Source: Saccharolobus solfataricus
GTDB lineage: Archaea; Thermoproteota; Thermoprotei_A; Sulfolobales; Sulfolobaceae
Length of the DNA stretch: 32,000 bases
Reading direction: 5' to 3'
Assembly (NCBI RefSeq): GCF_900079115.1
Contig: NZ_LT549890.1
Coordinates: forward strand, 2,550,001-2,582,000
Part shown: piece by piece, positions 19,946 to 30,065 of the stretch
Layout: every line of letters begins with the position of its first letter
How positions within the stretch are numbered: the stretch's first letter is position 1
Program-made: the position numbers and the translations under genes
Notes under the pieces: generated by a model
Databases searched by the model: none
The model's input: only the letters and a program-made list of their open reading frames with translations
What the model was told of the DNA's origin: nothing

Positions 19946-21139
19946 GTGATAAGGCCAGAGTTATGCATAAGATGTAGAGGGGCAAAGTATCTTTGCGGTC
20001 TTTCATACTGTCCAATCATAGTTAATACTAAAACGGTAAGAGTAAATTTCAAGGAGGTATATGGTTCTTCCCCACCATCCGTCTTTGTAGGTAGATTTAG
20101 TTATCCCAAAATTACAGTTTATCCCTCTGCCCCACCAATTTTAGGGGATACGAGTAAGTTTGAAGATTCCAAATATTGGCTCAATGCTGACTTAAGTGAG
20201 TTCTTATCAATGAGGCTTTCCTTAGTGAGAGGTGGTGTCAAATATCACAAAGATGATGCAAGACTACCAGATAGGTTTTTACTAGATATTCAGAGTATAA
20301 CAATATCATCGAGACCAGTTGAATTGGATTTAAGGCTGAAGAGAATACCTTCTGGAGGTATTTTAGATGAAAGTCTGCCACCTCTAGGTCCTTCAGCACC
20401 ATTGGAAAAGCTTGAGATAGCCACATTGCCTCCTCCCTTAGCAGTAGTAGAGAAGGTTTATGTTGATAACGATATGAGGGCAAAAGATGGTATAATGAAA
20501 TTATATAATGCAGGGATTGACGTAGAAAAAATATCCAGGATATTAAGTATTGGTGGAATTGGAAAGGAAAGAAAATTAGTACCTACTAGATGGAGTATAA
20601 CAGCAGTGGATAAGGCTATTTCCGATACTCTAATTGAGAATATAAAGAATTATGACACGATAGACAAGGTTGAAGTTTATTTCAGAAAATATAATAAGAA
20701 TCTTTTCATCGCAATTCTTCTTCCTAGAGATTGGAGCTTTGAATGGGGAGAAGCCTGGTATCCTGGAAGTACCTGGAATAAGTTTGGCAACTATGTTGAT
20801 ATAGAAGTGGATAACGAAAGGTATCATGGTAGATCTGATTATCCAGAAATAGGCGGTTGTTATTATGCTTCTAGATTAGGTGTGACGGAATTCTTGGCAA
20901 GCAGAAAGAGACAAGCCACTGCAATATTATGGAGGGAGATATATGAAGGATTTAACTTGCCAGTAGGTGTTTGGTTTGTTAGGGAAAACGTTAAGGAAAT
21001 GTTTAAAGGTAAGCCAGTAGTATTTGACGACATAAGTACTGCCTTAAATTTCGTTAAAAGATTATTAAGATCTGATTTAAAGCAGTGGTTAAGTAAGTCA
21101 TTACTCTCCTTTAATACCATTGATAAGTGGTTAAAATGA
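19946..21139 (+). CDS. nreA: archaeal Nre-family DNA repair protein
   Basis: 397 aa with a GTG start. The N-terminal Cys cluster CIRCRGAKYLCGLSYCP is typical of Nre N-domains. The extreme C-terminus FNTIDKWLK fits a PCNA-interacting (PIP-like) xxxIxxWL tail. Confidence 0.65.
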   Translation: MIRPELCIRCRGAKYLCGLSYCPIIVNTKTVRVNFKEVYGSSPPSVFVGRFSYPKITVYPSAPPILGDTSKFEDSKYWLNADLSEFLSMRLSLVRGGVKYHKDDARLPDRFLLDIQSITISSRPVELDLRLKRIPSGGILDESLPPLGPSAPLEKLEIATLPPPLAVVEKVYVDNDMRAKDGIMKLYNAGIDVEKISRILSIGGIGKERKLVPTRWSITAVDKAISDTLIENIKNYDTIDKVEVYFRKYNKNLFIAILLPRDWSFEWGEAWYPGSTWNKFGNYVDIEVDNERYHGRSDYPEIGGCYYASRLGVTEFLASRKRQATAILWREIYEGFNLPVGVWFVRENVKEMFKGKPVVFDDISTALNFVKRLLRSDLKQWLSKSLLSFNTIDKWLK

Positions 21140-21912
21140 TTGTAAAGTCCATTAGGGTGAAATCTGCTTTAAGTAAATCTGGATTGAAAGAGTTAAACTA
21201 TAGTCTAAATCCTTATTTAGGTTGTGTATTTTCTTGCCCCTATTGTTATGCCCCCAATTTCACTCCAGATAGGGAGGCTTCAGAAAATTGGGGGAAAGTT
21301 GTAGCCGTTAAGGAGAACTTGCTTGAGGTTTTAGAGAGAGAAGTGAAAATCTATAAGAGGGGAGTAGTTGGGATATCTACAATAACTGATGCTTATCAAC
21401 CGATAGAGGCTTTAAGAAAGCTTACTAGGGAAAGCCTAAAGATATTATTAAAGAATGGTTTCAGAGTTTCAATTCAGACTAAGTCACCCTTAGTTTTAAG
21501 GGATATTGACGTACTCTTAGAATACAAGGATAGAGTTGATGTTGGATTTACAGTTACTAGTTTAAATAATAAGTTAGAACCTAACGCACCTCCAGCTAAA
21601 GGTAGATTAAGAGCCTTAGAGGAACTCAGTAATGAAGGGCTGGAAACTTGGATTTTCCTAGGACCTATTATTCAAGGTGTAAATGATACTGAGGTAGAGA
21701 ATATAATTCGTGAAATTTCAAATATCAAAGCAAGGGTAATTTTCGATAGTTTTCATTACTATAGGGGGTTAAAATTTAAGGAGGGTTCTATACATTGGTG
21801 GGTTAATTTGAAGAATAAAATATTAGAGAATTGTAAGAGGTACAGTATAGAGTGCCATGAACAAAGTGAGGACTGGATTTATGAAAAAAAGAGATATTAT
21901 AAAACCTTTTAG
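21136..21912 (+). CDS. radical SAM protein, SplB-like ('DNA repair photolyase' COG group)
   Basis: Contains the CxxxCxxC motif CVFSCPYC. The ATG at 21136 overlaps the nreA TGA (ATGA at 21136-21139). The track's GTG at 21127 lies 3 codons upstream and is less likely. Confidence 0.75.
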   Translation: MIVKSIRVKSALSKSGLKELNYSLNPYLGCVFSCPYCYAPNFTPDREASENWGKVVAVKENLLEVLEREVKIYKRGVVGISTITDAYQPIEALRKLTRESLKILLKNGFRVSIQTKSPLVLRDIDVLLEYKDRVDVGFTVTSLNNKLEPNAPPAKGRLRALEELSNEGLETWIFLGPIIQGVNDTEVENIIREISNIKARVIFDSFHYYRGLKFKEGSIHWWVNLKNKILENCKRYSIECHEQSEDWIYEKKRYYKTF

Positions 21913-21914
21913 CC

Positions 21915-22253
21915 TTATATTCCGGCTACTTCTCTTAATGTTTTGAATATTTGATTGAAATCTGCCTCAGCAAGTTTAACAAACACTCCATAATTTCCCA
22001 TTACGCATACTGCATACTCTCCTGCAGCTACAGCCCACCCTAAAAACGGAGTCCATCTCATTCCAGAAATTTTCGTGAAAGACTCTGCTTCCACAGTTCC
22101 CATTAAAGTGTTAGCTGCCACCATCTTTGCTACCATCTCAGCAATCTCTTTAGACATCGGTCCCTTATACTCTACAAGTTTCCCATCCGGTGTATATTGT
22201 CCAGCTGCTATTGCTCCTTTTAATTGCATTAGTTTATCGAGCTTTTCACTCAT
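21915..22253 (-). CDS. DUF2173-like small protein (roadblock/LC7-type fold suspected)
   Basis: 112 aa. The pattern KGAIAAGQYTPDGKLVEYKG...MVAANTLMG...SGMRWTPFLGWAVAAGEYAVCVMGNYGVFV matches my recollection of the DUF2173 family. This was not verified by search. Confidence 0.5.
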   Translation of the reverse strand: MSEKLDKLMQLKGAIAAGQYTPDGKLVEYKGPMSKEIAEMVAKMVAANTLMGTVEAESFTKISGMRWTPFLGWAVAAGEYAVCVMGNYGVFVKLAEADFNQIFKTLREVAGI

Positions 22254-24729: not shown

Positions 24730-25539
24730 ATGCCCTATGCAGAAGAAATGGAAGTGAAAGCTAGTAGATCTCAATTACTGTCATTCTTTATAGACCCAGT
24801 GAGATTTGCTGGAATATTAGGTCACCTGATGATTGTGAATATATTTGATAAGGCCGAAAGTAAATTCGTAACAATGGGTAGTCTAAAAAAGCCTGAAAAT
24901 AAGTTCAAAGTTCTTTATTTAATCGGAGATCCAGAATCACGATTAATAACGTTTTCAGGTATAATGGAGGGACCTACACTTACGTTTAATACCATTACAT
25001 ATAAGGGAGAAGGAGATAATGGGAAATTAACGTGGAGGATAGATCTTATCTTAACAGAATTAGGTAAACTAACAAGAATGAAAGTTGCTGCAGATGTTAA
25101 GCAAAGCTATGGTTTTCTAGATAGAGTCAGAATAGGAGATTTTGATTTTGCAACGCATTTAGTAAAAGAGCATGTAATACCATTTGTTAAATTTTATTTT
25201 AAGCCCTCTATCTTGGAAGAAACTCCAGTCCTCAATGAGGTATTTAGATTTAGAGGGAGTGTTGAAGAGGTTATATTGAAATTAAGAGAGGTTATAGTAA
25301 ATATTAAACAAGGAGGTATAATTATTCTTGGAGATGATTATAATATAATAACATCCATAGTCAATGGAGAAGTCTCTCATGCTCAGATAAATAATATGGA
25401 TGTACCTGGAAGTGAGGTTTTTGCATATCTACTTAAGGCGAGCGGAAATGTAGAATTAATAGCCTATGATATTTCCTTAGATGACTTGATATTTAAGAAC
25501 TTAAAAAGAAGATTGGAGGAAGTGAAAGCTAAATCATGA
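24730..25539 (+). CDS. hypothetical protein (N-terminal half possibly SRPBCC/START-like)
   Basis: 269 aa with an ATG start and AT-rich TATA-like sequence upstream. The fold suggestion is weak and based on pattern only. Confidence 0.55.
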   Translation: MPYAEEMEVKASRSQLLSFFIDPVRFAGILGHLMIVNIFDKAESKFVTMGSLKKPENKFKVLYLIGDPESRLITFSGIMEGPTLTFNTITYKGEGDNGKLTWRIDLILTELGKLTRMKVAADVKQSYGFLDRVRIGDFDFATHLVKEHVIPFVKFYFKPSILEETPVLNEVFRFRGSVEEVILKLREVIVNIKQGGIIILGDDYNIITSIVNGEVSHAQINNMDVPGSEVFAYLLKASGNVELIAYDISLDDLIFKNLKRRLEEVKAKS

Positions 25540-26574
25540 TGTTTTTTGCGTAATTACGCAAGAAGCAGCGCTACTAATTAATCTAGGTGCAATTTGCTCA
25601 GTGATCAAATATACCTCATAGTCCTTTTCTTTGGACAAGTACTCGACGTTAAGGTCAGAGAACACTAATATGTCAAATCCCTGCTTACTGATGACGTAAA
25701 TTTCATCATTACTAACTATGTCCGTAGGTACTACATTCCCTATTTCCTTTATCATTTCAATTTCGTAGGTGCCACTTCTATCAACCACCCTGAAGGTTTT
25801 AGAGTAGTTTAAGCTAGACATTAGTATGTAAACGTCTTTACCGAATCCTTCTCGAGTTAAATTTTCATACGCTCTTAGAACATCGAGTAGTATATTTCCA
25901 GCGACATTCCAGTCAGAACCTGTAATTTTCAAGCCGATTTTTAGAGGAGATAACGGATGATTTTTTAATAATAAATAATTCTCCATCTTAGCAAAAGATT
26001 TTCCAGCTAATACGGCTGTTCTTCTCGAATCGCTCTTCTGACCCAAATAAAATTTTACTTGAGAATTAATTAACGGAACTTCATAGAGTGATGCACTTTT
26101 GCTTTGAATTATATCTCCGGAATCCTCTTTTATTTCTGATAAAGGTATGGTGGTAAACTCATATTTTATTGTATTTCCTATATTCCTCATTATTCTACTC
26201 GACACAATTCCCTCAGTTATCCAGCTCACTATATGGTCTTTGGAAATCTCCTTACTACTAGTTGGAATTAAAGGAAAATCCTTGGTTTCACCAATCAGTT
26301 TTGAAGCTTCTTCCCATCCCTTTTTAAAATAACTGAAATCCTCTGGAGAAACTTGATATAGTAGTCTTAGGAATTCTCCAAAATGAGTCATTTCCTCTTT
26401 AGTTATGTCTTCATGTACTTTTCTTAATTTCTCGTCATCAATATATTTATTTTGTTGTAGATAAAAATTTATAGCATCTATTTCTGCAGCTATTGCATTT
26501 CTTATAGCTCTGACTGATTCCTCTTTATCAAATTTTTCTTTTCTAGTTAAAGTTGAGGGATCATTAGAGAACAA
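25534..26574 (-). CDS. encapsulin nanocompartment shell protein with fused N-terminal ferritin-like (EncFtn/Flp) domain
   Basis: 346 aa with a TTG start. The N-terminal ~95 aa carry the EncFtn di-iron pattern (AAEIDAINFY ... KEEMTHFGEF, i.e. Glu, Tyr and ExxH). The C-terminal ~235 aa align by eye with HK97-fold encapsulins, for example YILMSS...IYVISKQGFDILVFSDLNVEY...YEVYLITEQIAPRL against the T. maritima and P. furiosus PfV C-terminal blocks. Overall length and N-terminus match the P. furiosus Flp-encapsulin fusion. Confidence 0.85.
   Translation of the reverse strand: MFSNDPSTLTRKEKFDKEESVRAIRNAIAAEIDAINFYLQQNKYIDDEKLRKVHEDITKEEMTHFGEFLRLLYQVSPEDFSYFKKGWEEASKLIGETKDFPLIPTSSKEISKDHIVSWITEGIVSSRIMRNIGNTIKYEFTTIPLSEIKEDSGDIIQSKSASLYEVPLINSQVKFYLGQKSDSRRTAVLAGKSFAKMENYLLLKNHPLSPLKIGLKITGSDWNVAGNILLDVLRAYENLTREGFGKDVYILMSSLNYSKTFRVVDRSGTYEIEMIKEIGNVVPTDIVSNDEIYVISKQGFDILVFSDLNVEYLSKEKDYEVYLITEQIAPRLISSAASCVITQKTS
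25542..25561 (+). terminator. T6 tract plus perfect 16-nt palindrome directly after the stop of 24730..25539
   Basis: TTTTTT at 25542-25547 and TTGCGTAATTACGCAA at 25546-25561. The palindrome lies inside the last codons (CVITQK) of the convergent encapsulin gene. Confidence 0.4.
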
Positions 26575-26808
26575 AACTTAGCACCCATTACTCTATAAGC
26601 GTTTACGTATAAAAGTTATAAAGTCTCTTTGGCTTTATCTACAATTGCACTCATTAGCTAGTTTGTAGATTTTTATCAGATATTTAAGAATCATTACTAA
26701 CTTAAATTGTACACTTTAACATTGACCGAAATGGAGATAATATAGTGATCTAGTGTAAAAATATTCAATAGGTAAATCAAGCAAATACTCACTCTCTTTT
26801 CCCTTATA

Positions 26809-28158
26809 TTAAAGGGCGAGGTTTTCTGTCTCATTCCTTGTAGGTGTTTGATATTGATCGAAAAGGATCTTTAATCTCTCTTCTAATAGGAAGACGTCAC
26901 CATTCAATATTTTCACAACTTCTAGCGTAGGGATATTTAGTGTGTAAATGTTATTAATATTAGTAGCGGTGTTTGTTATTACGAATCTTCCCCTAACCTT
27001 ATATACTTTCTTATCATGTTCCACTTCCTCAATTTTGCTTAACAATTTCAATTCCTCATAGTTATATAAGCTTCCGTCATTTGAAAATACTACATCTCCC
27101 AAGTATACTTGATCATCCACAATGAAGAATAAGCCTACTACAATAGACTTTCCGTCAACTTCAATTCTCTTTCCTCTTGGATGAACATAGCTTATTCCAA
27201 ACTCTTTACTAATATTGGATAGTAACTCTCTAACCTTCTTTTCAAATTCCTTAGCGTCAACTTCTGGATTCCTTAGACTTGTATATTTTCTCAATTCACT
27301 TCTAATACAATCTATGTTATTTTTCTCACAAACTTTTTCTACCTTATCCATCTCATTTCGTATGAACTGTAATATTGAACTGACATTAGTTATCTCTTTA
27401 CTATTCCATAGTGTTATAATTATTGGTAGAATGTCCTCTGTTAGATCTTTACAATAGGCTTCTACAATTTCCTTTATGTCCTCACTTGTTAACGCGTCAT
27501 CTAGAGGAATTCTGCTCTCCTCTATTCTCCTTCTTATTGCTAAATCAGAAACCTTGCTGTAAACCTCAGTAGGCATTGCCATAATTATCGGTATATCAAG
27601 TCCTGCGTTAATTAGCCTGTGTATTAGACTTAAGTGATAATCCCTTATTTCATCAATTAAAAGTACTAGCTTACTCAAATTCTTCATATCTCTTAACGCA
27701 TTAATCATTCCGTCGAAGTTTCTTTCATAGCTCAAACAATAAACCCTTAGAAAGGGATTATTATATTTATTGCAAATTTTTAGCAACCAATCCTCAAATT
27801 TAACTCCCATCAATCTTTTCCAAAAAGAATATCCAAGCTTACCCTTTATCTTCTGCAGTTCAAGTAAAGCCTTTTCCCTCAATTCGAATTGAGTAGTCTT
27901 AGTCCAGAATTCCTCATCTATACTTTGTTTATTAGCTAAGTCTAAGTAAATTGATAAGTTATCAGTTTTTGTTATTTCCTCTATTTTCTTAAGTAACGTA
28001 GTCTTTCCCATACCAGGTTGTCCAACAACTGATGCCACTTCGTTATTTCTTACTATTTCTAGTGTCTTTTCTAAATATTTTCTATATGTTGGACCTACCA
28101 GTATAATGCTTCTAGATGACCATGTAGTTACAGTTACTCTTGGTATCTCACAAACCAT
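26809..28158 (-). CDS. P-loop (AAA+/archaeal-ATPase-like) NTPase with uncharacterised C-terminal ~140-aa domain (possibly nuclease-like)
   Basis: 449 aa. Walker A is GQPGMGKTT (27997-28023) and Walker B is LVLLIDEI. A lid-like segment reads RIPLDDALTSEDIKEIVEAY. The C-terminal region (EFEKKVRELL...RIEVDGKSIVVGLFFIVDD...) has alternating helix and strand character reminiscent of restriction-endonuclease-fold domains, but no clean (D/E)xK motif. Confidence 0.7.
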   Translation of the reverse strand: MVCEIPRVTVTTWSSRSIILVGPTYRKYLEKTLEIVRNNEVASVVGQPGMGKTTLLKKIEEITKTDNLSIYLDLANKQSIDEEFWTKTTQFELREKALLELQKIKGKLGYSFWKRLMGVKFEDWLLKICNKYNNPFLRVYCLSYERNFDGMINALRDMKNLSKLVLLIDEIRDYHLSLIHRLINAGLDIPIIMAMPTEVYSKVSDLAIRRRIEESRIPLDDALTSEDIKEIVEAYCKDLTEDILPIIITLWNSKEITNVSSILQFIRNEMDKVEKVCEKNNIDCIRSELRKYTSLRNPEVDAKEFEKKVRELLSNISKEFGISYVHPRGKRIEVDGKSIVVGLFFIVDDQVYLGDVVFSNDGSLYNYEELKLLSKIEEVEHDKKVYKVRGRFVITNTATNINNIYTLNIPTLEVVKILNGDVFLLEERLKILFDQYQTPTRNETENLAL

Positions 28159-28160
28159 AT

Positions 28161-28661
28161 TTATCTCCTCCTCTTAACTATTCCGTAAGTAACGCCTCTT
28201 CTCGTAAATCCCTCATCACCTCCAGCTATTAAATCGTAATTTTCCTCTACATATTTTCTAAATTTTGAGTAAAACTCTTCCTTAGAAAGTCCTAGTTCTA
28301 TCCTTATTCTCTCCAATGGCGCATATCCTAAAGAATCCCTTATCCTATCATAAGCCTCATCAAAATCCTTAGATGAAAAACTCTTTGATTCAACGAATTT
28401 CTGTAATAGGTCAAGCATTTTATGAATCTCATCCCTTAGTATTTTCAACTCGTCTTCTATGTTTATACTATCTAGCGGTTCAAAAGTGATTTTACTCCCA
28501 TTTTCAACTCTTCTTATTTTTCCCTCCTTCTCTAACTCCTCGAGTACATGTATGAGGTTTCTATCCTTAAACTTCCTCTTAATCTTAGATAATGAGACCG
28601 GTTTCTGTGAATCCTTATATTCACTCAATATAAGAGCAAAGACGTCATCCTTGCCAATCAT
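28161..28661 (-). CDS. winged-helix DNA-binding protein with coiled-coil linker and a conserved-looking C-terminal domain
   Basis: 166 aa. The N-terminus PVSLSKIKRKF..LIHVLEELEKEGKIRRVENG looks like a wHTH. A central heptad-like stretch reads EDELKILRDEIHKMLDLLQKF. Its stop lies 2 nt before the ATPase ATG, and a GAGGAGGAG SD-like run sits in its last codons. Confidence 0.6.
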   Translation of the reverse strand: MIGKDDVFALILSEYKDSQKPVSLSKIKRKFKDRNLIHVLEELEKEGKIRRVENGSKITFEPLDSINIEDELKILRDEIHKMLDLLQKFVESKSFSSKDFDEAYDRIRDSLGYAPLERIRIELGLSKEEFYSKFRKYVEENYDLIAGGDEGFTRRGVTYGIVKRRR

Positions 28662-28898
28662 GTTAAAGGTTTTGGTTCTAAAATGTTCATAAGGCTTACA
28701 GCCCTTAATACTGACTTTAGGAGTTTAAAAGAAGTCACGCAATTAGAACGTATTCATAATTATTTTATTTGATTCATAAGACTTCCTAGTTACTTTTTGT
28801 AACTTATCTAATGATTGGCTATGAAGAATATATGTATATATGAAGAGAGAATCTACATAATATATCTATATTAGTATTAAAAATGAAACAAGATTTTC

Positions 28899-30065
28899 TT
28901 AATAAACTAAAGCCTTAATTGTGGCACCAATTTCTGTTGACGAACTTAATCTAATCCAAGTTGTAGGCTTATCGATAATATTTATTCCACGCTTTAATAC
29001 CACGCTATCGCTAACTTCATCATTAATATCAGCCTTTAATTGTAATTCAGCTTCTCCGTTAACTGATACGATTAGTCTATTGGCATTAGGAACATAATAC
29101 CACTTACTCTCCCTTCCCTTGAATTTCCCTCTTAGCTCACCATAACTCCTAGGATCAAAGATAAAAGTATCAACGTATTCTACCCAAATTTCATGTGTAT
29201 AGCCCTCTTTCCCAGTATCGATCCTAGTGGTATAGGTATCTCTGAAGGATACAAAAAACAATTTTGGTTTTCCGTCTGGTTCGGTAGTGTAATGAGGATG
29301 TCCAACTTGAACGAATGAGTCATCTAAACCTAGAAGTGGCATTAGTGAACCTTGAAGAAAACTAACTTTGTTAACATCTTCTGTCACATAAAGCTCATCT
29401 AAATTAGGTCCAATGAACGATTGTAACATCCATTTTGAAACAGTATTCATTTCAATGAAGATTTGAAACCTAGGGATAAGTGTGAAGTCTAATACATCAT
29501 TACTCCTAGCCCAAGCTCCAATATCCCCTAAATCCTCAACTCTCACCTTTTCCAAATCGTCGACGCTTCTTACCATATATAACTTAACACCAGAAGAATC
29601 AGCATTAGGAGCTACTGCAAATGCGTCATGCATATTTCTATATGCTCCGGTTGGTCTTATAGGAAAGCCAGAGTCCTTCTTTAAGTCCTTAATTAAAAGT
29701 TTATATCCCTTTAGTTTCCACTCTTGATCGAATGCAAAGAAATAGACATCATTTCCATGTGTAGAAGTGATGTAGAACTCGTCTCTAGCCTCATTGTAAA
29801 ATCCCCTTATTCCATTGTTACTATAGTCAACTTGCATTGGGAAATCAGATGGTAAAATCTTCTTAATACCACTAAAGTCAACGTTTAGACTCCTATCTAT
29901 TGGCGCTACGAATCCTTCACGTTTTAACCCTTTTAGATCACTCCAACCAGTGAAGAGGAACCAGTGCTTGTCTCTTTTACTATCATAGATTACGTATGGG
30001 GTTCCTACTCCACCTTTAATATCGCTAAAGGGAGATTTTGGGGGAAGAATTATTGGTCTGATCAT
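28899..30065 (-). CDS. hypothetical protein, possibly beta-propeller glycosidase-like (GH43/GH130/DUF377-type)
   Basis: 388 aa with an ATG start. The ORF is long and clean. The function guess rests only on the N-terminal pattern GTPYVIYDSKRDKHWFLFTGW and its neighbourhood with GH15, so it is weak. Confidence 0.5.
   Translation of the reverse strand: MIRPIILPPKSPFSDIKGGVGTPYVIYDSKRDKHWFLFTGWSDLKGLKREGFVAPIDRSLNVDFSGIKKILPSDFPMQVDYSNNGIRGFYNEARDEFYITSTHGNDVYFFAFDQEWKLKGYKLLIKDLKKDSGFPIRPTGAYRNMHDAFAVAPNADSSGVKLYMVRSVDDLEKVRVEDLGDIGAWARSNDVLDFTLIPRFQIFIEMNTVSKWMLQSFIGPNLDELYVTEDVNKVSFLQGSLMPLLGLDDSFVQVGHPHYTTEPDGKPKLFFVSFRDTYTTRIDTGKEGYTHEIWVEYVDTFIFDPRSYGELRGKFKGRESKWYYVPNANRLIVSVNGEAELQLKADINDEVSDSVVLKRGINIIDKPTTWIRLSSSTEIGATIKALVY

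What the first reader, a model, noticed from the sequence alone, without database searches (positions are those of the whole stretch)
26809..28661. Tightly coupled wHTH protein + P-loop ATPase with unknown C-terminal domain: candidate novel defence or conflict module
This is a two-gene operon with a 2-nt gap between stop and ATG and a GAGGAGGAG SD-like run in front of the ATPase. It is isolated by ~235-bp AT-rich spacers on both sides. Gene 1 (166 aa) has a winged helix, a coiled coil and a compact C-terminal domain. Gene 2 (449 aa) has Walker A GQPGMGKTT, Walker B LVLLIDEI and an AAA+-like lid, then a ~140-aa beta-rich C-terminal region that looks effector- or nuclease-like but lacks a canonical (D/E)xK. 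A sensor or DNA-binder paired with an NTPase-effector is the grammar of many recently found antiviral systems. I cannot match this pair to any named system.
Basis: inference. Interest (0 to 1): 0.7.

Follow-up and report, generated by a model that had tools for sequence, protein, structure and literature searches.

The report
Tandem winged-helix protein plus ATPase/dead-nuclease operon
This is a real, conserved two-gene operon of Sulfolobales (a double winged-helix DNA-binding protein plus an ORC-like ATPase fused to a nuclease-fold domain) that a 2024 paper already proposed as an untested antiviral system copied by two viruses, and the nuclease active site turns out to be degenerate in this conserved version.

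Summary
There are two minus-strand genes, 166 aa (28161..28661) and 449 aa (26809..28158), with a 2-nt gap, a GAGGAGGAG run and AT-rich spacers of about 235 bp. The window is Saccharolobus solfataricus. Gene 1 is winged helix, long helix, second winged helix. Gene 2 is an intact ORC/Cdc6/MuB-like AAA+ ATPase fused to a PD-(D/E)xK-fold domain.

No Pfam, NCBIfam or PADLOC model passes threshold. The family is tiny: 47 hits among 1.84 billion representatives. The operon is not new. It is the orthologue family of SiRe_2374/SiRe_2373 (arCOG03737/03738). Bhoobalan-Chitty et al. 2024 (PMC11065993) proposed that pair as an untested abortive-infection/toxin-antitoxin-like immunity, antagonised by viral copies of the small protein (ARV3 gp05, ATV2).

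New here:
- In the vertically inherited clade that includes this gene, the catalytic Asp is Gly/Ser/Asn in 33 of 34 sequences, and (D/E)xK is broken differently per lineage (G342 and DVV here).
- A sporadic paralogue clade keeps D...(D/E)xK and sits by CRISPR-Cas, IS elements, a methyltransferase gene or HerA-NurA genes.
- The viral copies match the C-terminal winged helix, not the N-terminal one.

Verdict: a known candidate conflict module, probably non-nucleolytic in this clade.

The parts
28161..28661 (-). Gene 1: 166-aa tandem winged-helix protein (arCOG03737 family; AAK42861.1 / Q97V84)
   Evidence: ORF. 100% match to the S. solfataricus protein. Model pLDDT 88.7. Best PDB fold matches are ScpB tandem wH, MarR, MecI and ArsR, all weak.
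28476..28661 (-). Gene 1 N-terminal winged helix (aa 1-62)
   Evidence: Secondary structure H4-18, H24-31, H36-45, E49-54, E57-62. Weak SelB-wing and AbiEi wHTH hits. This part is absent from the viral homologues.
28386..28460 (-). Gene 1 long connecting helix (aa 68-92), coiled-coil-like
   Evidence: H68-92 in the model. Retained in the viral copies.
28164..28373 (-). Gene 1 C-terminal winged helix (aa 97-166), the most conserved part and the part copied by viruses
   Evidence: Invariant residues cluster here. phrog_38850 hit E 1e-21 over aa 76-165. ARV3 gp05 and the ATV2 protein are 39-46% identical over aa 49/77-164. BFVD hit to ARV3 gp05, E 1.1e-8, TM 0.68.
28165..28173 (-). GAGGAGGAG Shine-Dalgarno-like run before gene 2, inside the last codons of gene 1
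   Evidence: Read from the sequence. Overlaps the codons for the K-R-R-R tail.
26809..28158 (-). Gene 2: 449-aa AAA+ ATPase fused to a PD-(D/E)xK-fold domain (arCOG03738 family; AAK42860.1)
   Evidence: ORF. 100% match. Model pLDDT 86.7. Foldseek top hits are Orc1/Cdc6, MuB, DnaA and TnsC.
28093..28158 (-). Gene 2 N-terminal tail (aa 1-22), low model confidence (blocks of 10 residues average pLDDT 64 and 59; aa 9-15 below 50) but the most conserved segment (70% mean pairwise identity); candidate partner-binding peptide
   Evidence: pLDDT 59-64 for these blocks. Invariant C3 and nearly invariant P6, V10, T11, W13. Per-domain identities. The binding role is inference.
27499..28092 (-). AAA+ core (aa 23-220) with a helical insert of about 85 aa between strand 2 and Walker B (at the position of the initiator-specific motif)
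28000..28023 (-). Walker A GQPGMGKT (aa 46-53)
   Evidence: Read from the sequence. Invariant G46, P48, G49, G51, K52, T53.
27649..27669 (-). Walker B (aa 164-170, ...LLIDE)
   Evidence: Invariant D169 and E170 in both clades.
27526..27546 (-). DLAIRRR (aa 205-211), box VII / arginine-finger-like motif
   Evidence: Invariant D205, A207, R210, R211. One Arg is invariant in the wider family. The assignment as arginine finger is by analogy with Cdc6/Orc1 box VII (inference).
27268..27498 (-). Lid and helical linker (aa 221-297), with invariant C236, C277 and C284
26851..27267 (-). C-terminal PD-(D/E)xK-fold domain (aa 298-436), catalytically degenerate here
27133..27135 (-). Gly342 codon (GGC) at the position of the catalytic Asp of the 'PD' motif
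   Evidence: Alignment table: G/S/N in 33 of 34 main-clade sequences, D in the basal and paralogue clades and in all 14 wider relatives.
27088..27096 (-). Asp355-Val356-Val357 (GAT GTA GTA) at the position of (D/E)xK; the Lys is lost
   Evidence: Saccharolobus-group sequences have D/N-V-V/F/L, most other lineages have L/M/Q/T/I-V-K, and the paralogues have DVK.
28662..28898 (-). Upstream AT-rich spacer (237 bp, GC 26%), presumed promoter region
   Evidence: No archaeal promoter model was available. The sigma-70 scan is not informative for an archaeon.
26575..26808 (-). Downstream AT-rich spacer (234 bp, GC 29%) before the encapsulin gene

Best explanation
This is the S. solfataricus orthologue of the Sulfolobales operon arCOG03737/arCOG03738 (SiRe_2374/SiRe_2373 in S. 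islandicus). I read it as a two-component virus-host conflict module whose ATPase subunit has lost nuclease chemistry. SHOWN: gene 1 encodes a protein with a winged helix, a long helix and a second winged helix. Gene 2 encodes an ORC/Cdc6/MuB-like AAA+ ATPase with complete Walker A, Walker B and Arg motifs. That ATPase is fused to a PD-(D/E)xK-fold domain. The pair is co-inherited throughout the family, including distant members. In the clade holding this gene the catalytic Asp is replaced (G342 here), and the (D/E)xK triad is broken in different ways in different genera. Other C-domain residues stay invariant (E306, R310, Y324, H326, R328, N396; K330, R331 and T395 nearly so). Two Sulfolobales viruses encode only the helix plus C-terminal winged helix of the small protein. 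INFERRED: the small protein binds DNA through its winged helices. It contacts and restrains or targets the ATPase through its C-terminal winged helix, possibly via the ultra-conserved N-terminal tail of the ATPase. After a trigger such as infection, the ATPase assembles on DNA in an ATP-dependent way, as initiator-clade AAA+ proteins do. The dead nuclease-fold domain would then act as a DNA-binding or DNA-recognition module rather than a cutter. The output would be occlusion, remodelling or signalling, not cleavage. The viral copies would act as decoys that keep the ATPase-contacting domain but lack the N-terminal winged helix. Paralogues with an intact D...(D/E)xK probably represent the ancestral, cleaving version.
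For: - Pair and coupling.
- Co-inheritance of both genes across genera, in paralogues and in a distant relative (hhalign probability 94.6%, E 6.7e-8 for the distant partner).
- Active-site decay in 33 of 34 main-clade sequences, with lineage-specific patterns. The C-domain still shows 50% mean pairwise identity and invariant residues.
- Viral truncated homologues ARV3 gp05 and ATV2. They are listed as early-promoter anti-defence candidates (ADG.51) in PMC11065993.
- Intact-motif paralogues lie beside a 66-repeat CRISPR array with cas6, RAMP and Csx1 genes and a PIN-MazE pair, beside IS110, PaREP1 and DUF3368 genes, and in a contig that also holds an AAA_5 ATPase gene about 4.5 kb away and an N6/N4 methyltransferase gene about 9 kb away.
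Against: - No experiment exists for any member.
- The clade holding this gene is vertically inherited, with a tree that follows genera. It is single-copy and present in most Sulfolobaceae genera. In this window it is flanked by metabolic genes and an encapsulin gene, not defence genes. That pattern is typical of housekeeping genes rather than defence systems.
- No PADLOC model matches.
- Loss of catalytic residues removes the obvious effector.
- The defence-island context of the paralogues rests on only four loci, in genomes where CRISPR, toxin-antitoxin and IS elements are common.
- The contact between the small protein and the ATPase, and the decoy role of the viral copies, are not shown.
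Confidence: 0.5

Rival explanations
1. It is a housekeeping DNA-transaction, chromatin or transcription factor. An ORC-like AAA+ protein with a DNA-binding pseudo-nuclease domain is loaded or regulated by a tandem winged-helix partner, by analogy with Orc1/Cdc6 plus winged-helix co-factors or with ScpB-like adaptors. Viruses copy the partner's domain to hijack or shut down this host process, not to escape immunity.
For: Near-core, vertically inherited distribution. Catalytic residues are lost while other residues remain under purifying selection. The ATPase is initiator-clade. The small protein is a tandem winged helix with ScpB as its weak best match. There are no defence neighbours in this window or in the S. 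islandicus synteny.
Against: No S. acidocaldarius protein appears among the named hits, so the pair is probably not universal. Two S. islandicus genomes carry a frameshifted ATPase, although this may be a homopolymer sequencing error. Flanking synteny is not kept between genera. Paralogues with intact nuclease motifs sit in variable and defence regions. The viral copies lie among early anti-defence gene candidates.
Confidence: 0.25
2. It is an active abortive-infection / type II toxin-antitoxin-like system, exactly as proposed in the literature. The ATPase-nuclease is a toxin that degrades nucleic acid. The small winged-helix protein is its antitoxin and autorepressor. The viral ADG.51 is a surrogate antitoxin. 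The logic resembles OLD and PARIS.
For: Published hypothesis for the orthologous operon. Gene order is a small DNA-binding protein followed by a tightly coupled larger protein. The C-domain has a PD-(D/E)xK fold. Viral copies of the small protein exist.
Against: In this protein, and in 33 of 34 sequences of its clade, the metal-binding Asp is absent. In Saccharolobus the Lys is absent as well, so nuclease toxicity is unlikely for this copy. The vertical, near-core distribution is atypical for toxin-antitoxin or abortive-infection modules. There is no homology to OLD or PARIS components beyond the P-loop.
Confidence: 0.15
3. It is a domesticated remnant of a replication or maintenance module from a mobile element (an ORC-like initiator plus a winged-helix origin-binding protein), now fixed in Sulfolobaceae chromosomes.
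For: The ATPase has an ORC/Cdc6/MuB/TnsC-like fold, and there is a weak PHROG hit to a MuB-like transposition protein. Part of the small protein occurs in viruses.
Against: No family member was found in IMG/VR viral contigs, GenBank phage and virus records or PLSDB plasmids. No integrase, transposase or repeats flank the pair in this window. The fused nuclease-fold domain is not a feature of known initiators.
Confidence: 0.05

Closest known systems
SiRe_2374/SiRe_2373 operon of S. islandicus REY15A (arCOG03737 + arCOG03738), Bhoobalan-Chitty et al. 2024, PMC11065993
   Same: Same architecture: a two-wHTH small protein, then a 449-aa AAA ATPase fused to a PD-DExK domain. Same viral homologues (ARV3 gp05 = ADG.51, and ATV2). 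S. islandicus proteins are 87% (ATPase) and 83% (small protein) identical to the window's.
   Different: None at family level; this is the same orthologous group. The paper treats the C-domain as a nuclease toxin and does not comment on catalytic residues in the passages read here. I find them degenerate in this clade. The paper states that the viral proteins keep the N-terminal wHTH. My alignments place them on the C-terminal winged helix plus the preceding helix. The SiRe locus tags themselves could not be looked up with the tools, so orthology is inferred from these shared features.
COG1672 archaeal AAA+ ATPases (Pfam ATPase_2, PF01637) fused to DUF234 (PF03008), a PD-(D/E)XK family (Steczkiewicz et al. 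2012, PMC3424549)
   Same: An AAA+ ATPase followed by a PD-(D/E)xK-fold domain in one polypeptide, abundant in archaea. ATPase_2 gives weak hits here and precomputed hits in two relatives.
   Different: ATPase_2 scores 17.3 bits against a cut-off of 33.2. DUF234 gives no hit at all for the full protein or for 23 C-domains. The obligate tandem winged-helix partner is specific to this family.
Orc1/Cdc6, DnaA, MuB and TnsC (initiator/helper clade of AAA+)
   Different: There is no C-terminal winged-helix DNA-binding domain; a nuclease-fold domain takes its place. The winged helices are supplied in trans by gene 1. No Pfam Cdc6 or ORC model passes.
McrBC type IV restriction
   Different: McrB and McrC are separate proteins. 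McrB is a GTPase with its own signature. No sequence similarity was detected. The active site here is degenerate.
OLD-family nucleases and PARIS (AriA/AriB)
   Same: The logic is an ATPase coupled to a nuclease, used for abortive infection. This comparison is drawn in PMC11065993.
   Different: Those systems use ABC/SMC-like ATPases and Toprim nucleases. Here only the P-loop matches AriA (E 0.0096 over 33 residues).
ScpB and MarR/MecI-type winged-helix proteins (for gene 1)
   Same: Two winged helices in tandem (ScpB) and the general wHTH fold.
   Different: Matches are weak (E 2.6e-3 at best, TM about 0.27 for the whole chain). There is no ScpA/SMC partner. The C-terminal winged helix carries a family-specific signature (IR.ELG.S.E.FYSKF....Y.LIAGG.EG).

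Membership tests
arCOG03737/arCOG03738 operon (SiRe_2374/SiRe_2373-like) | A small protein with two wHTH domains, encoded directly upstream of and co-oriented with the ATPase gene | tested here: met
   2-nt gap; winged helix at aa 1-62 and at aa 97-164.
arCOG03737/arCOG03738 operon (SiRe_2374/SiRe_2373-like) | A large protein of about 449 aa with an N-terminal ORC/Cdc6-like AAA ATPase | tested here: met
arCOG03737/arCOG03738 operon (SiRe_2374/SiRe_2373-like) | A C-terminal PD-DExK-fold domain | tested here: inconclusive
arCOG03737/arCOG03738 operon (SiRe_2374/SiRe_2373-like) | The small protein is homologous to viral ADG.51 (ARV3 gp05, ATV2) | tested here: met
   tblastn E 1e-16 to 2e-16, 39-46% identity. 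BFVD E 1.1e-8. QJF12318.1 is listed as ADG.51.
Catalytically competent PD-(D/E)xK nucleases | A metal-binding Asp on strand 2 and a (D/E)xK on strand 3 | tested here: not met
   G342 and D355-V356-V357 in this protein. The Asp is missing in 33 of 34 main-clade sequences. E306 on helix 1 is retained.
COG1672 / PF01637 + PF03008 (archaeal ATPase + DUF234) | ATPase_2 model above its gathering score | tested here: not met
   17.3 bits against 33.2.
COG1672 / PF01637 + PF03008 (archaeal ATPase + DUF234) | DUF234 model match in the C-terminal domain | tested here: not met
   No hit at E up to 1 for the full protein or for 23 C-domains. A profile-profile test against DUF234 could not be run.
Orc1/Cdc6 replication initiators | AAA+ initiator-clade fold | tested here: met
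Orc1/Cdc6 replication initiators | A C-terminal winged-helix origin-binding domain in the same polypeptide | tested here: not met
   The C-terminus is an alpha/beta nuclease-fold domain. There is no Cdc6_C hit.
Known defence systems in PADLOC-DB v2 (including OLD, PARIS, Gabija, AbiE, McrBC) | A significant match of either protein to a system model over more than the P-loop or wHTH | tested here: not met
   Best hits have E 3e-4 to 0.03 and cover 20-50 residues of the P-loop or wHTH only, apart from a 113-residue match to GajB (aa 207-319, E 0.0015).
Type II toxin-antitoxin / abortive-infection cassette | A small DNA-binding protein encoded immediately upstream of the putative toxin | tested here: met
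Type II toxin-antitoxin / abortive-infection cassette | Patchy, horizontally mobile distribution | tested here: not met
   The main clade follows genus phylogeny. This feature is met only by the paralogue clade.
Type II toxin-antitoxin / abortive-infection cassette | The toxin arrests growth and the partner neutralises it | not testable with these tools
   Needs expression experiments.
ScpB (SMC kleisin partner) | A tandem winged-helix fold with a confident structural match, plus a ScpA/SMC context | tested here: inconclusive
   E 2.6e-3, TM 0.27. No ScpA or SMC gene is adjacent.

The most novel reading that the evidence does not exclude
The near-core Sulfolobaceae version of this operon is an exapted pseudo-nuclease. 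An ancestral ATPase-nuclease defence module lost its catalytic Asp once, at the base of the clade. It was then kept for hundreds of millions of years as an ATP-driven, non-cleaving DNA sensor or occluder (or as a host factor). Viruses still have to neutralise it with a decoy copy of its partner's C-terminal winged helix. That would be a new, non-nucleolytic mode of archaeal antiviral action, with a built-in natural comparison (the intact paralogues) in the same genomes.
Probability: 0.3. Interest if true: 0.7.

Novelty: already known. Interest (0 to 1): 0.42.

Why it matters
Few archaeal antiviral systems other than CRISPR-Cas, restriction-modification and toxin-antitoxin modules have been characterised (general knowledge). 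This operon is present in most Sulfolobales model organisms, which are genetically tractable. According to PMC11065993, two cultured viruses (ARV3, ATV2) carry a candidate antagonist, so the hypothesis can be tested directly. The finding that the widespread version has a degenerate nuclease site, while sporadic paralogues keep it, changes which experiment to do first. Do not expect DNA cleavage from SiRe_2373 or the S. solfataricus protein; compare it with the S. tokodaii, S. javensis or Acidianus HS-5 paralogue. It also raises a general question: how can a defence-type ATPase-nuclease become a conserved, non-catalytic component? As a discovery in itself the operon is not new.

Tried and rejected
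- Pfam, NCBIfam and PADLOC scans of both proteins gave only sub-threshold P-loop or wHTH hits, and no family could be assigned. PHROGs likewise gave nothing specific for the ATPase, only a weak MuB-like phrog_296 hit at E 3e-6; it did give a strong hit for gene 1 (phrog_38850, E 1e-21).
- PDB sequence-profile searches with the full ATPase, the small protein and the C-domain found nothing meaningful. The RecA 'hits' are one 22-residue helix counted six times in concatenated RecA chains, so they are spurious.
- Pfam on 23 isolated C-domains gave nothing relevant.
- IMG/VR scans for both proteins found no relatives. Searches with the ATPase found nothing in GenBank phage and virus records or in PLSDB plasmids.
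- The genome-contig scan returned only 15 loci and clearly misses many genomes known to carry the gene, so it cannot be used to prove absence.
- Guessed SSO locus tags, and searches by accession, gave no usable literature. One mention of SSO2749 could not be tied to this gene.
- The ARV3 gp11 'ATPase' is unrelated beyond the P-loop.
- The sigma-70 promoter scan is not applicable to an archaeon and shows no enrichment.
- STAND/NLR membership was considered because of nSTAND3 and NB-ARC hits. These cover only the P-loop (aa 28-61), and no sensor repeats exist, so it was rejected.
Full report
OBSERVATION. The two ORFs are exactly as described, both on the minus strand. Gene 1 is 28161..28661 (166 aa) and gene 2 is 26809..28158 (449 aa). 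Gene 1 stops with TAA at 28161-28163, two bases follow, and the ATG of gene 2 starts at 28158. A GAGGAGGAG run lies at 28165-28173, 7-15 nt before that ATG. It overlaps the codons for the conserved K-R-R-R tail of gene 1, so it is partly a coding feature. The flanking spacers are 237 and 234 bp with 26% and 29% GC, against 35% for the window. Walker A GQPGMGKT (aa 46-53) and Walker B (D169-E170) are present. The window is from Saccharolobus solfataricus: both proteins are 100% identical to AAK42860.1 and AAK42861.1 (= Q97V84).

ARE THESE REAL GENES, AND HOW WIDESPREAD ARE THEY? Both proteins have full-length homologues at 46-87% identity. These occur in Saccharolobus, Sulfolobus, Acidianus, Metallosphaera, Stygiolobus, Sulfurisphaera, Sulfuracidifex and Aramenus. 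In Metallosphaera sedula, Sulfurisphaera ohwakuensis and Acidianus manzaensis the two genes remain adjacent with a 4-nt gap, while the flanking genes differ completely. Between S. solfataricus and S. islandicus the wider synteny is kept. A neighbour-joining tree of the ATPases groups them by genus, which indicates vertical inheritance. No S. acidocaldarius protein appears among the named hits, so the pair is widespread but probably not universal. An exhaustive HMM search of 1.84 billion representative proteins found only 47 hits at E <= 1e-3 and 27 at E <= 1e-10. The family is therefore very small and essentially confined to Sulfolobales-like archaea.

ANATOMY OF GENE 2. No Pfam, NCBIfam, PADLOC or PHROG family passes threshold. 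Nearly all hits (AAA_22, AAA_19, nSTAND3, ABC_tran and others) are confined to the N-terminal NTPase region, mostly the P-loop. The AlphaFold2 model is good (mean pLDDT 86.7). It shows these parts:
- a low-confidence N-terminal tail (aa 1-22);
- an AAA+ core (aa 23-220) with a helical insert of about 85 residues between strand 2 and Walker B;
- a lid and helical linker (aa 221-297);
- a C-terminal alpha/beta domain (aa 298-436).

Foldseek against the PDB gives Orc1/Cdc6, MuB, DnaA, TnsC and then Clp/p97-type ATPases (E about 1e-6 to 1e-4). This is the initiator/helper clade of AAA+. Invariant residues include the Walker motifs and D205-x-A207-x-x-R210-R211, which looks like the box VII arginine finger of Cdc6/Orc1 (the assignment is by analogy). 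The ATPase therefore looks catalytically competent. The N-terminal 22 residues are the most conserved segment (70% mean pairwise identity, against 60% for the core and 50% for the C-domain). That suggests a binding peptide, but this is inference.

THE C-TERMINAL DOMAIN IS A PD-(D/E)xK FOLD WITH A DEGENERATE ACTIVE SITE. The predicted topology is helix 298-315, then strands 322-325, 330-334, 337-347 and 350-357, then helix 367-373 and further strands. This is the alpha-beta-beta-beta-alpha-beta core of restriction-endonuclease-like enzymes. The distant family members found all carry a canonical Asp on strand 2 and a (D/E)xK on strand 3, 13 residues later. Examples are VIVDLYF...GDVKL, VTPDIYF...GEVKI and SVLDLVF...GDVKV. 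A Glu on helix 1 is invariant in alignment A1 (E306 in the window protein). In the orthologous clade that contains the window gene, the Asp position is Gly (27 sequences), Ser (4) or Asn (2) in 33 of 34 sequences. The triad is broken in lineage-specific ways:
- D/N-V-V/F/L in the Saccharolobus group (Lys lost);
- L/M/Q/T/I-V-K in Acidianus, Metallosphaera, Sulfurisphaera and others (acid lost).

ANATOMY OF GENE 1. The model (pLDDT 88.7) shows a winged helix (aa 1-62), a long helix (aa 68-92) and a second winged helix (aa 97-164). PDB fold matches are weak: ScpB tandem winged helix at E 2.6e-3, and MarR, MecI and ArsR types. The C-terminal winged helix holds almost all invariant residues. It matches PHROG 38850 at E 1e-21. 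tblastn against GenBank phage and virus records finds Acidianus rod-shaped virus 3 gp05 (101 aa, 2.1 kb from the left genome end) and an Acidianus two-tailed virus 2 protein (124 aa). Both consist only of the helix and the C-terminal winged helix, at 39-46% identity. ARV3 gp05 is also the only strong BFVD structural match (E 1.1e-8, TM 0.68). The viral sequences share the EEFYSK(F/Y) signature of the main clade rather than the EQFM signature of the paralogues.

THE PAIR IS THE UNIT. Every relative examined has a homologous small protein directly upstream:
- the basal lineage (L024);
- the Sulfurisphaera javensis paralogue (L023);
- the S. tokodaii (L025), Acidianus sp. HS-5 (L027) and metagenomic (L028) paralogues;
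- a very distant 537-aa member with an intact D...EVK (L031). Its 196-aa upstream protein aligns over its full length with the small-protein profile (hhalign probability 94.6%, E 6.7e-8).

CONTEXT. In the window the neighbours are Nre, a radical SAM protein, DUF2173, an MFS transporter, aldose epimerase, a ferritin-fused encapsulin, and a GH15 glycosidase. None is a defence gene. The intact-motif paralogues are sporadic (S. tokodaii, S. javensis, Acidianus sp. HS-5 and a few metagenomic contigs). They lie in variable regions:
- in Acidianus HS-5, directly after cas6 and a CRISPR array of about 66 repeats (GTTGAAATAAGGAAGAACTGAAAG), with RAMP genes, Csx1 and a PIN-MazE pair nearby;
- in S. tokodaii, among IS110, DUF772, PaREP1 and DUF3368 genes;
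- in one metagenomic contig that also holds an AAA_5 ATPase gene about 4.5 kb away and an N6/N4 methyltransferase gene about 9 kb away;
- in S. javensis, near HerA-NurA-like genes.

Four loci are suggestive rather than conclusive, because such elements are frequent in Sulfolobales genomes. Two S. islandicus genomes carry a 1-nt deletion in an A-run at nt 343 that splits the ATPase into 115 + 337 aa. Either the gene is dispensable there, or this is a homopolymer sequencing error.

LITERATURE. Bhoobalan-Chitty et al. 2024 (Nat Commun 15:3699, PMC11065993) describe exactly this operon family. ADG.51 (arCOG03737) of ARV3 and ATV2 is homologous to the host protein SiRe_2374. [quoted passage not shown] No experiment was done on it. 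[quoted passage not shown] No other paper in the searchable library mentions these identifiers. The AAA+ plus PD-(D/E)XK combination as such is also known from COG1672/DUF234 (Steczkiewicz et al. 2012, PMC3424549). The present family does not match those models.

WHAT I ADD OR DISAGREE WITH.
1. The widespread clade, which includes the S. islandicus sequences that are 87% identical to the window protein, has a degenerate nuclease site. The 'nuclease toxin' reading is therefore unlikely for it. A separate, sporadic clade keeps the site.
2. The paper states that the viral homologues keep the N-terminal wHTH. Four independent comparisons here place them on the C-terminal winged helix plus the preceding helix.
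3. The partnership extends to very distant members.

MECHANISM (best guess, confidence 0.5). This is a two-component conflict module. The tandem winged-helix protein binds DNA and holds or targets the ATPase through its C-terminal winged helix. The ATPase assembles on DNA with ATP, as other initiator-clade AAA+ proteins do. In this clade the nuclease-fold domain only binds DNA. Viral ADG.51 mimics the ATPase-contacting half of the partner. Shown: domain architecture, motif states, co-inheritance, the viral homologues, and the contexts. Inferred: all interactions, DNA binding, the trigger and the output. The main rival (0.25) is a housekeeping DNA-transaction or regulatory role, which would fit the core-like, vertical distribution and the dead active site. 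The published active-toxin model (0.15) fits the paralogues better than this gene. A domesticated replication module from a mobile element (0.05) has little support.

VERDICT. The feature is real and was read correctly. The defence/conflict interpretation is plausible but untested, and it has already been published for the orthologous operon. For this particular clade the evidence points to a non-cleaving derivative. Novelty: already known as a predicted system. Interest is moderate, because the hypothesis is directly testable in tractable hosts with cultured viruses, and because of the contrast between the pseudo-nuclease and the intact paralogues.

Noticed in passing
window 25534..26574 (-): A 346-aa encapsulin shell protein (Linocin_M18, E 5e-44) with an N-terminal ferritin-like segment (weak EncFtn-like hit, below the Pfam cut-off; EEMTHFGEF motif). 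This is a fused cargo-shell nanocompartment gene directly downstream of the operon, and it is also adjacent in S. islandicus.
   Followed up: partly
window 28899..30065 (-): A 388-aa ORF with no Pfam hit lies immediately upstream of the operon. At the syntenic position in S. islandicus (L029, L030) no ORF of this size is present (177-aa gene, 318-bp gap, then the small protein). It is therefore an insertion or deletion difference between the two species.
   Followed up: partly
window 26809..28158 (-), residues C3, C129, C141, C236, C277, C284: Six cysteines are invariant across all 38 aligned ATPases and mostly kept in the paralogue clade, including a C-x6-C loop (aa 277-284) between two helices. 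They could form disulfide staples or a metal site. Distances in the model could not be inspected.
   Followed up: no
window 28093..28158 (-), ATPase aa 1-22: The N-terminal tail (MxCxIPKVTVTTW) is modelled with low confidence (pLDDT about 60) yet is the most conserved part of the protein (70% mean pairwise identity). It is a likely docking peptide.
   Followed up: partly
L029 and L030, 5666-7014: Two S. islandicus genomes (GCA_000245215.2, GCA_000245275.2) have a 1-nt deletion in an A-run at nt 343 of the ATPase gene, which splits it into 115 + 337 aa. This is either a natural null allele or a homopolymer sequencing error.
   Followed up: partly
L021 2173-2478 (ARV3 gp05); L022 3893-4267 (ATV2): PMC11065993 says the viral ADG.51 proteins retain the N-terminal wHTH of the host protein. 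Every alignment made here maps them to the C-terminal winged helix plus the preceding helix (host aa 49/77-164).
   Followed up: yes
L027 4286-8130: A CRISPR array of about 66 repeats (repeat GTTGAAATAAGGAAGAACTGAAAG, period about 58 nt) in Acidianus sp. HS-5. It lies between a PIN-MazE pair and cas6, immediately upstream of the intact-nuclease paralogue pair. One spacer occurs twice (5695 and 6101).
   Followed up: partly
L001 9368-10849: In Metallosphaera sedula a 493-aa Ser/Thr protein kinase gene starts 29 nt after the ATPase stop on the same strand. A kinase gene also lies about 5 kb from the S. javensis paralogue (L023). This could be coincidence or a regulatory link.
   Followed up: no
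window 19946..22253: A cluster of archaeal Nre (Nre_N + Nre_C), an overlapping radical SAM gene and a convergent DUF2173 gene. The same order is conserved in S. islandicus (L029).
   Followed up: no
window 24730..25539 (+): A 269-aa ORF with no Pfam hit. Its 3' end overlaps the 3' end of the convergent encapsulin gene by 6 nt. It is conserved next to the encapsulin gene in S. islandicus.
   Followed up: no
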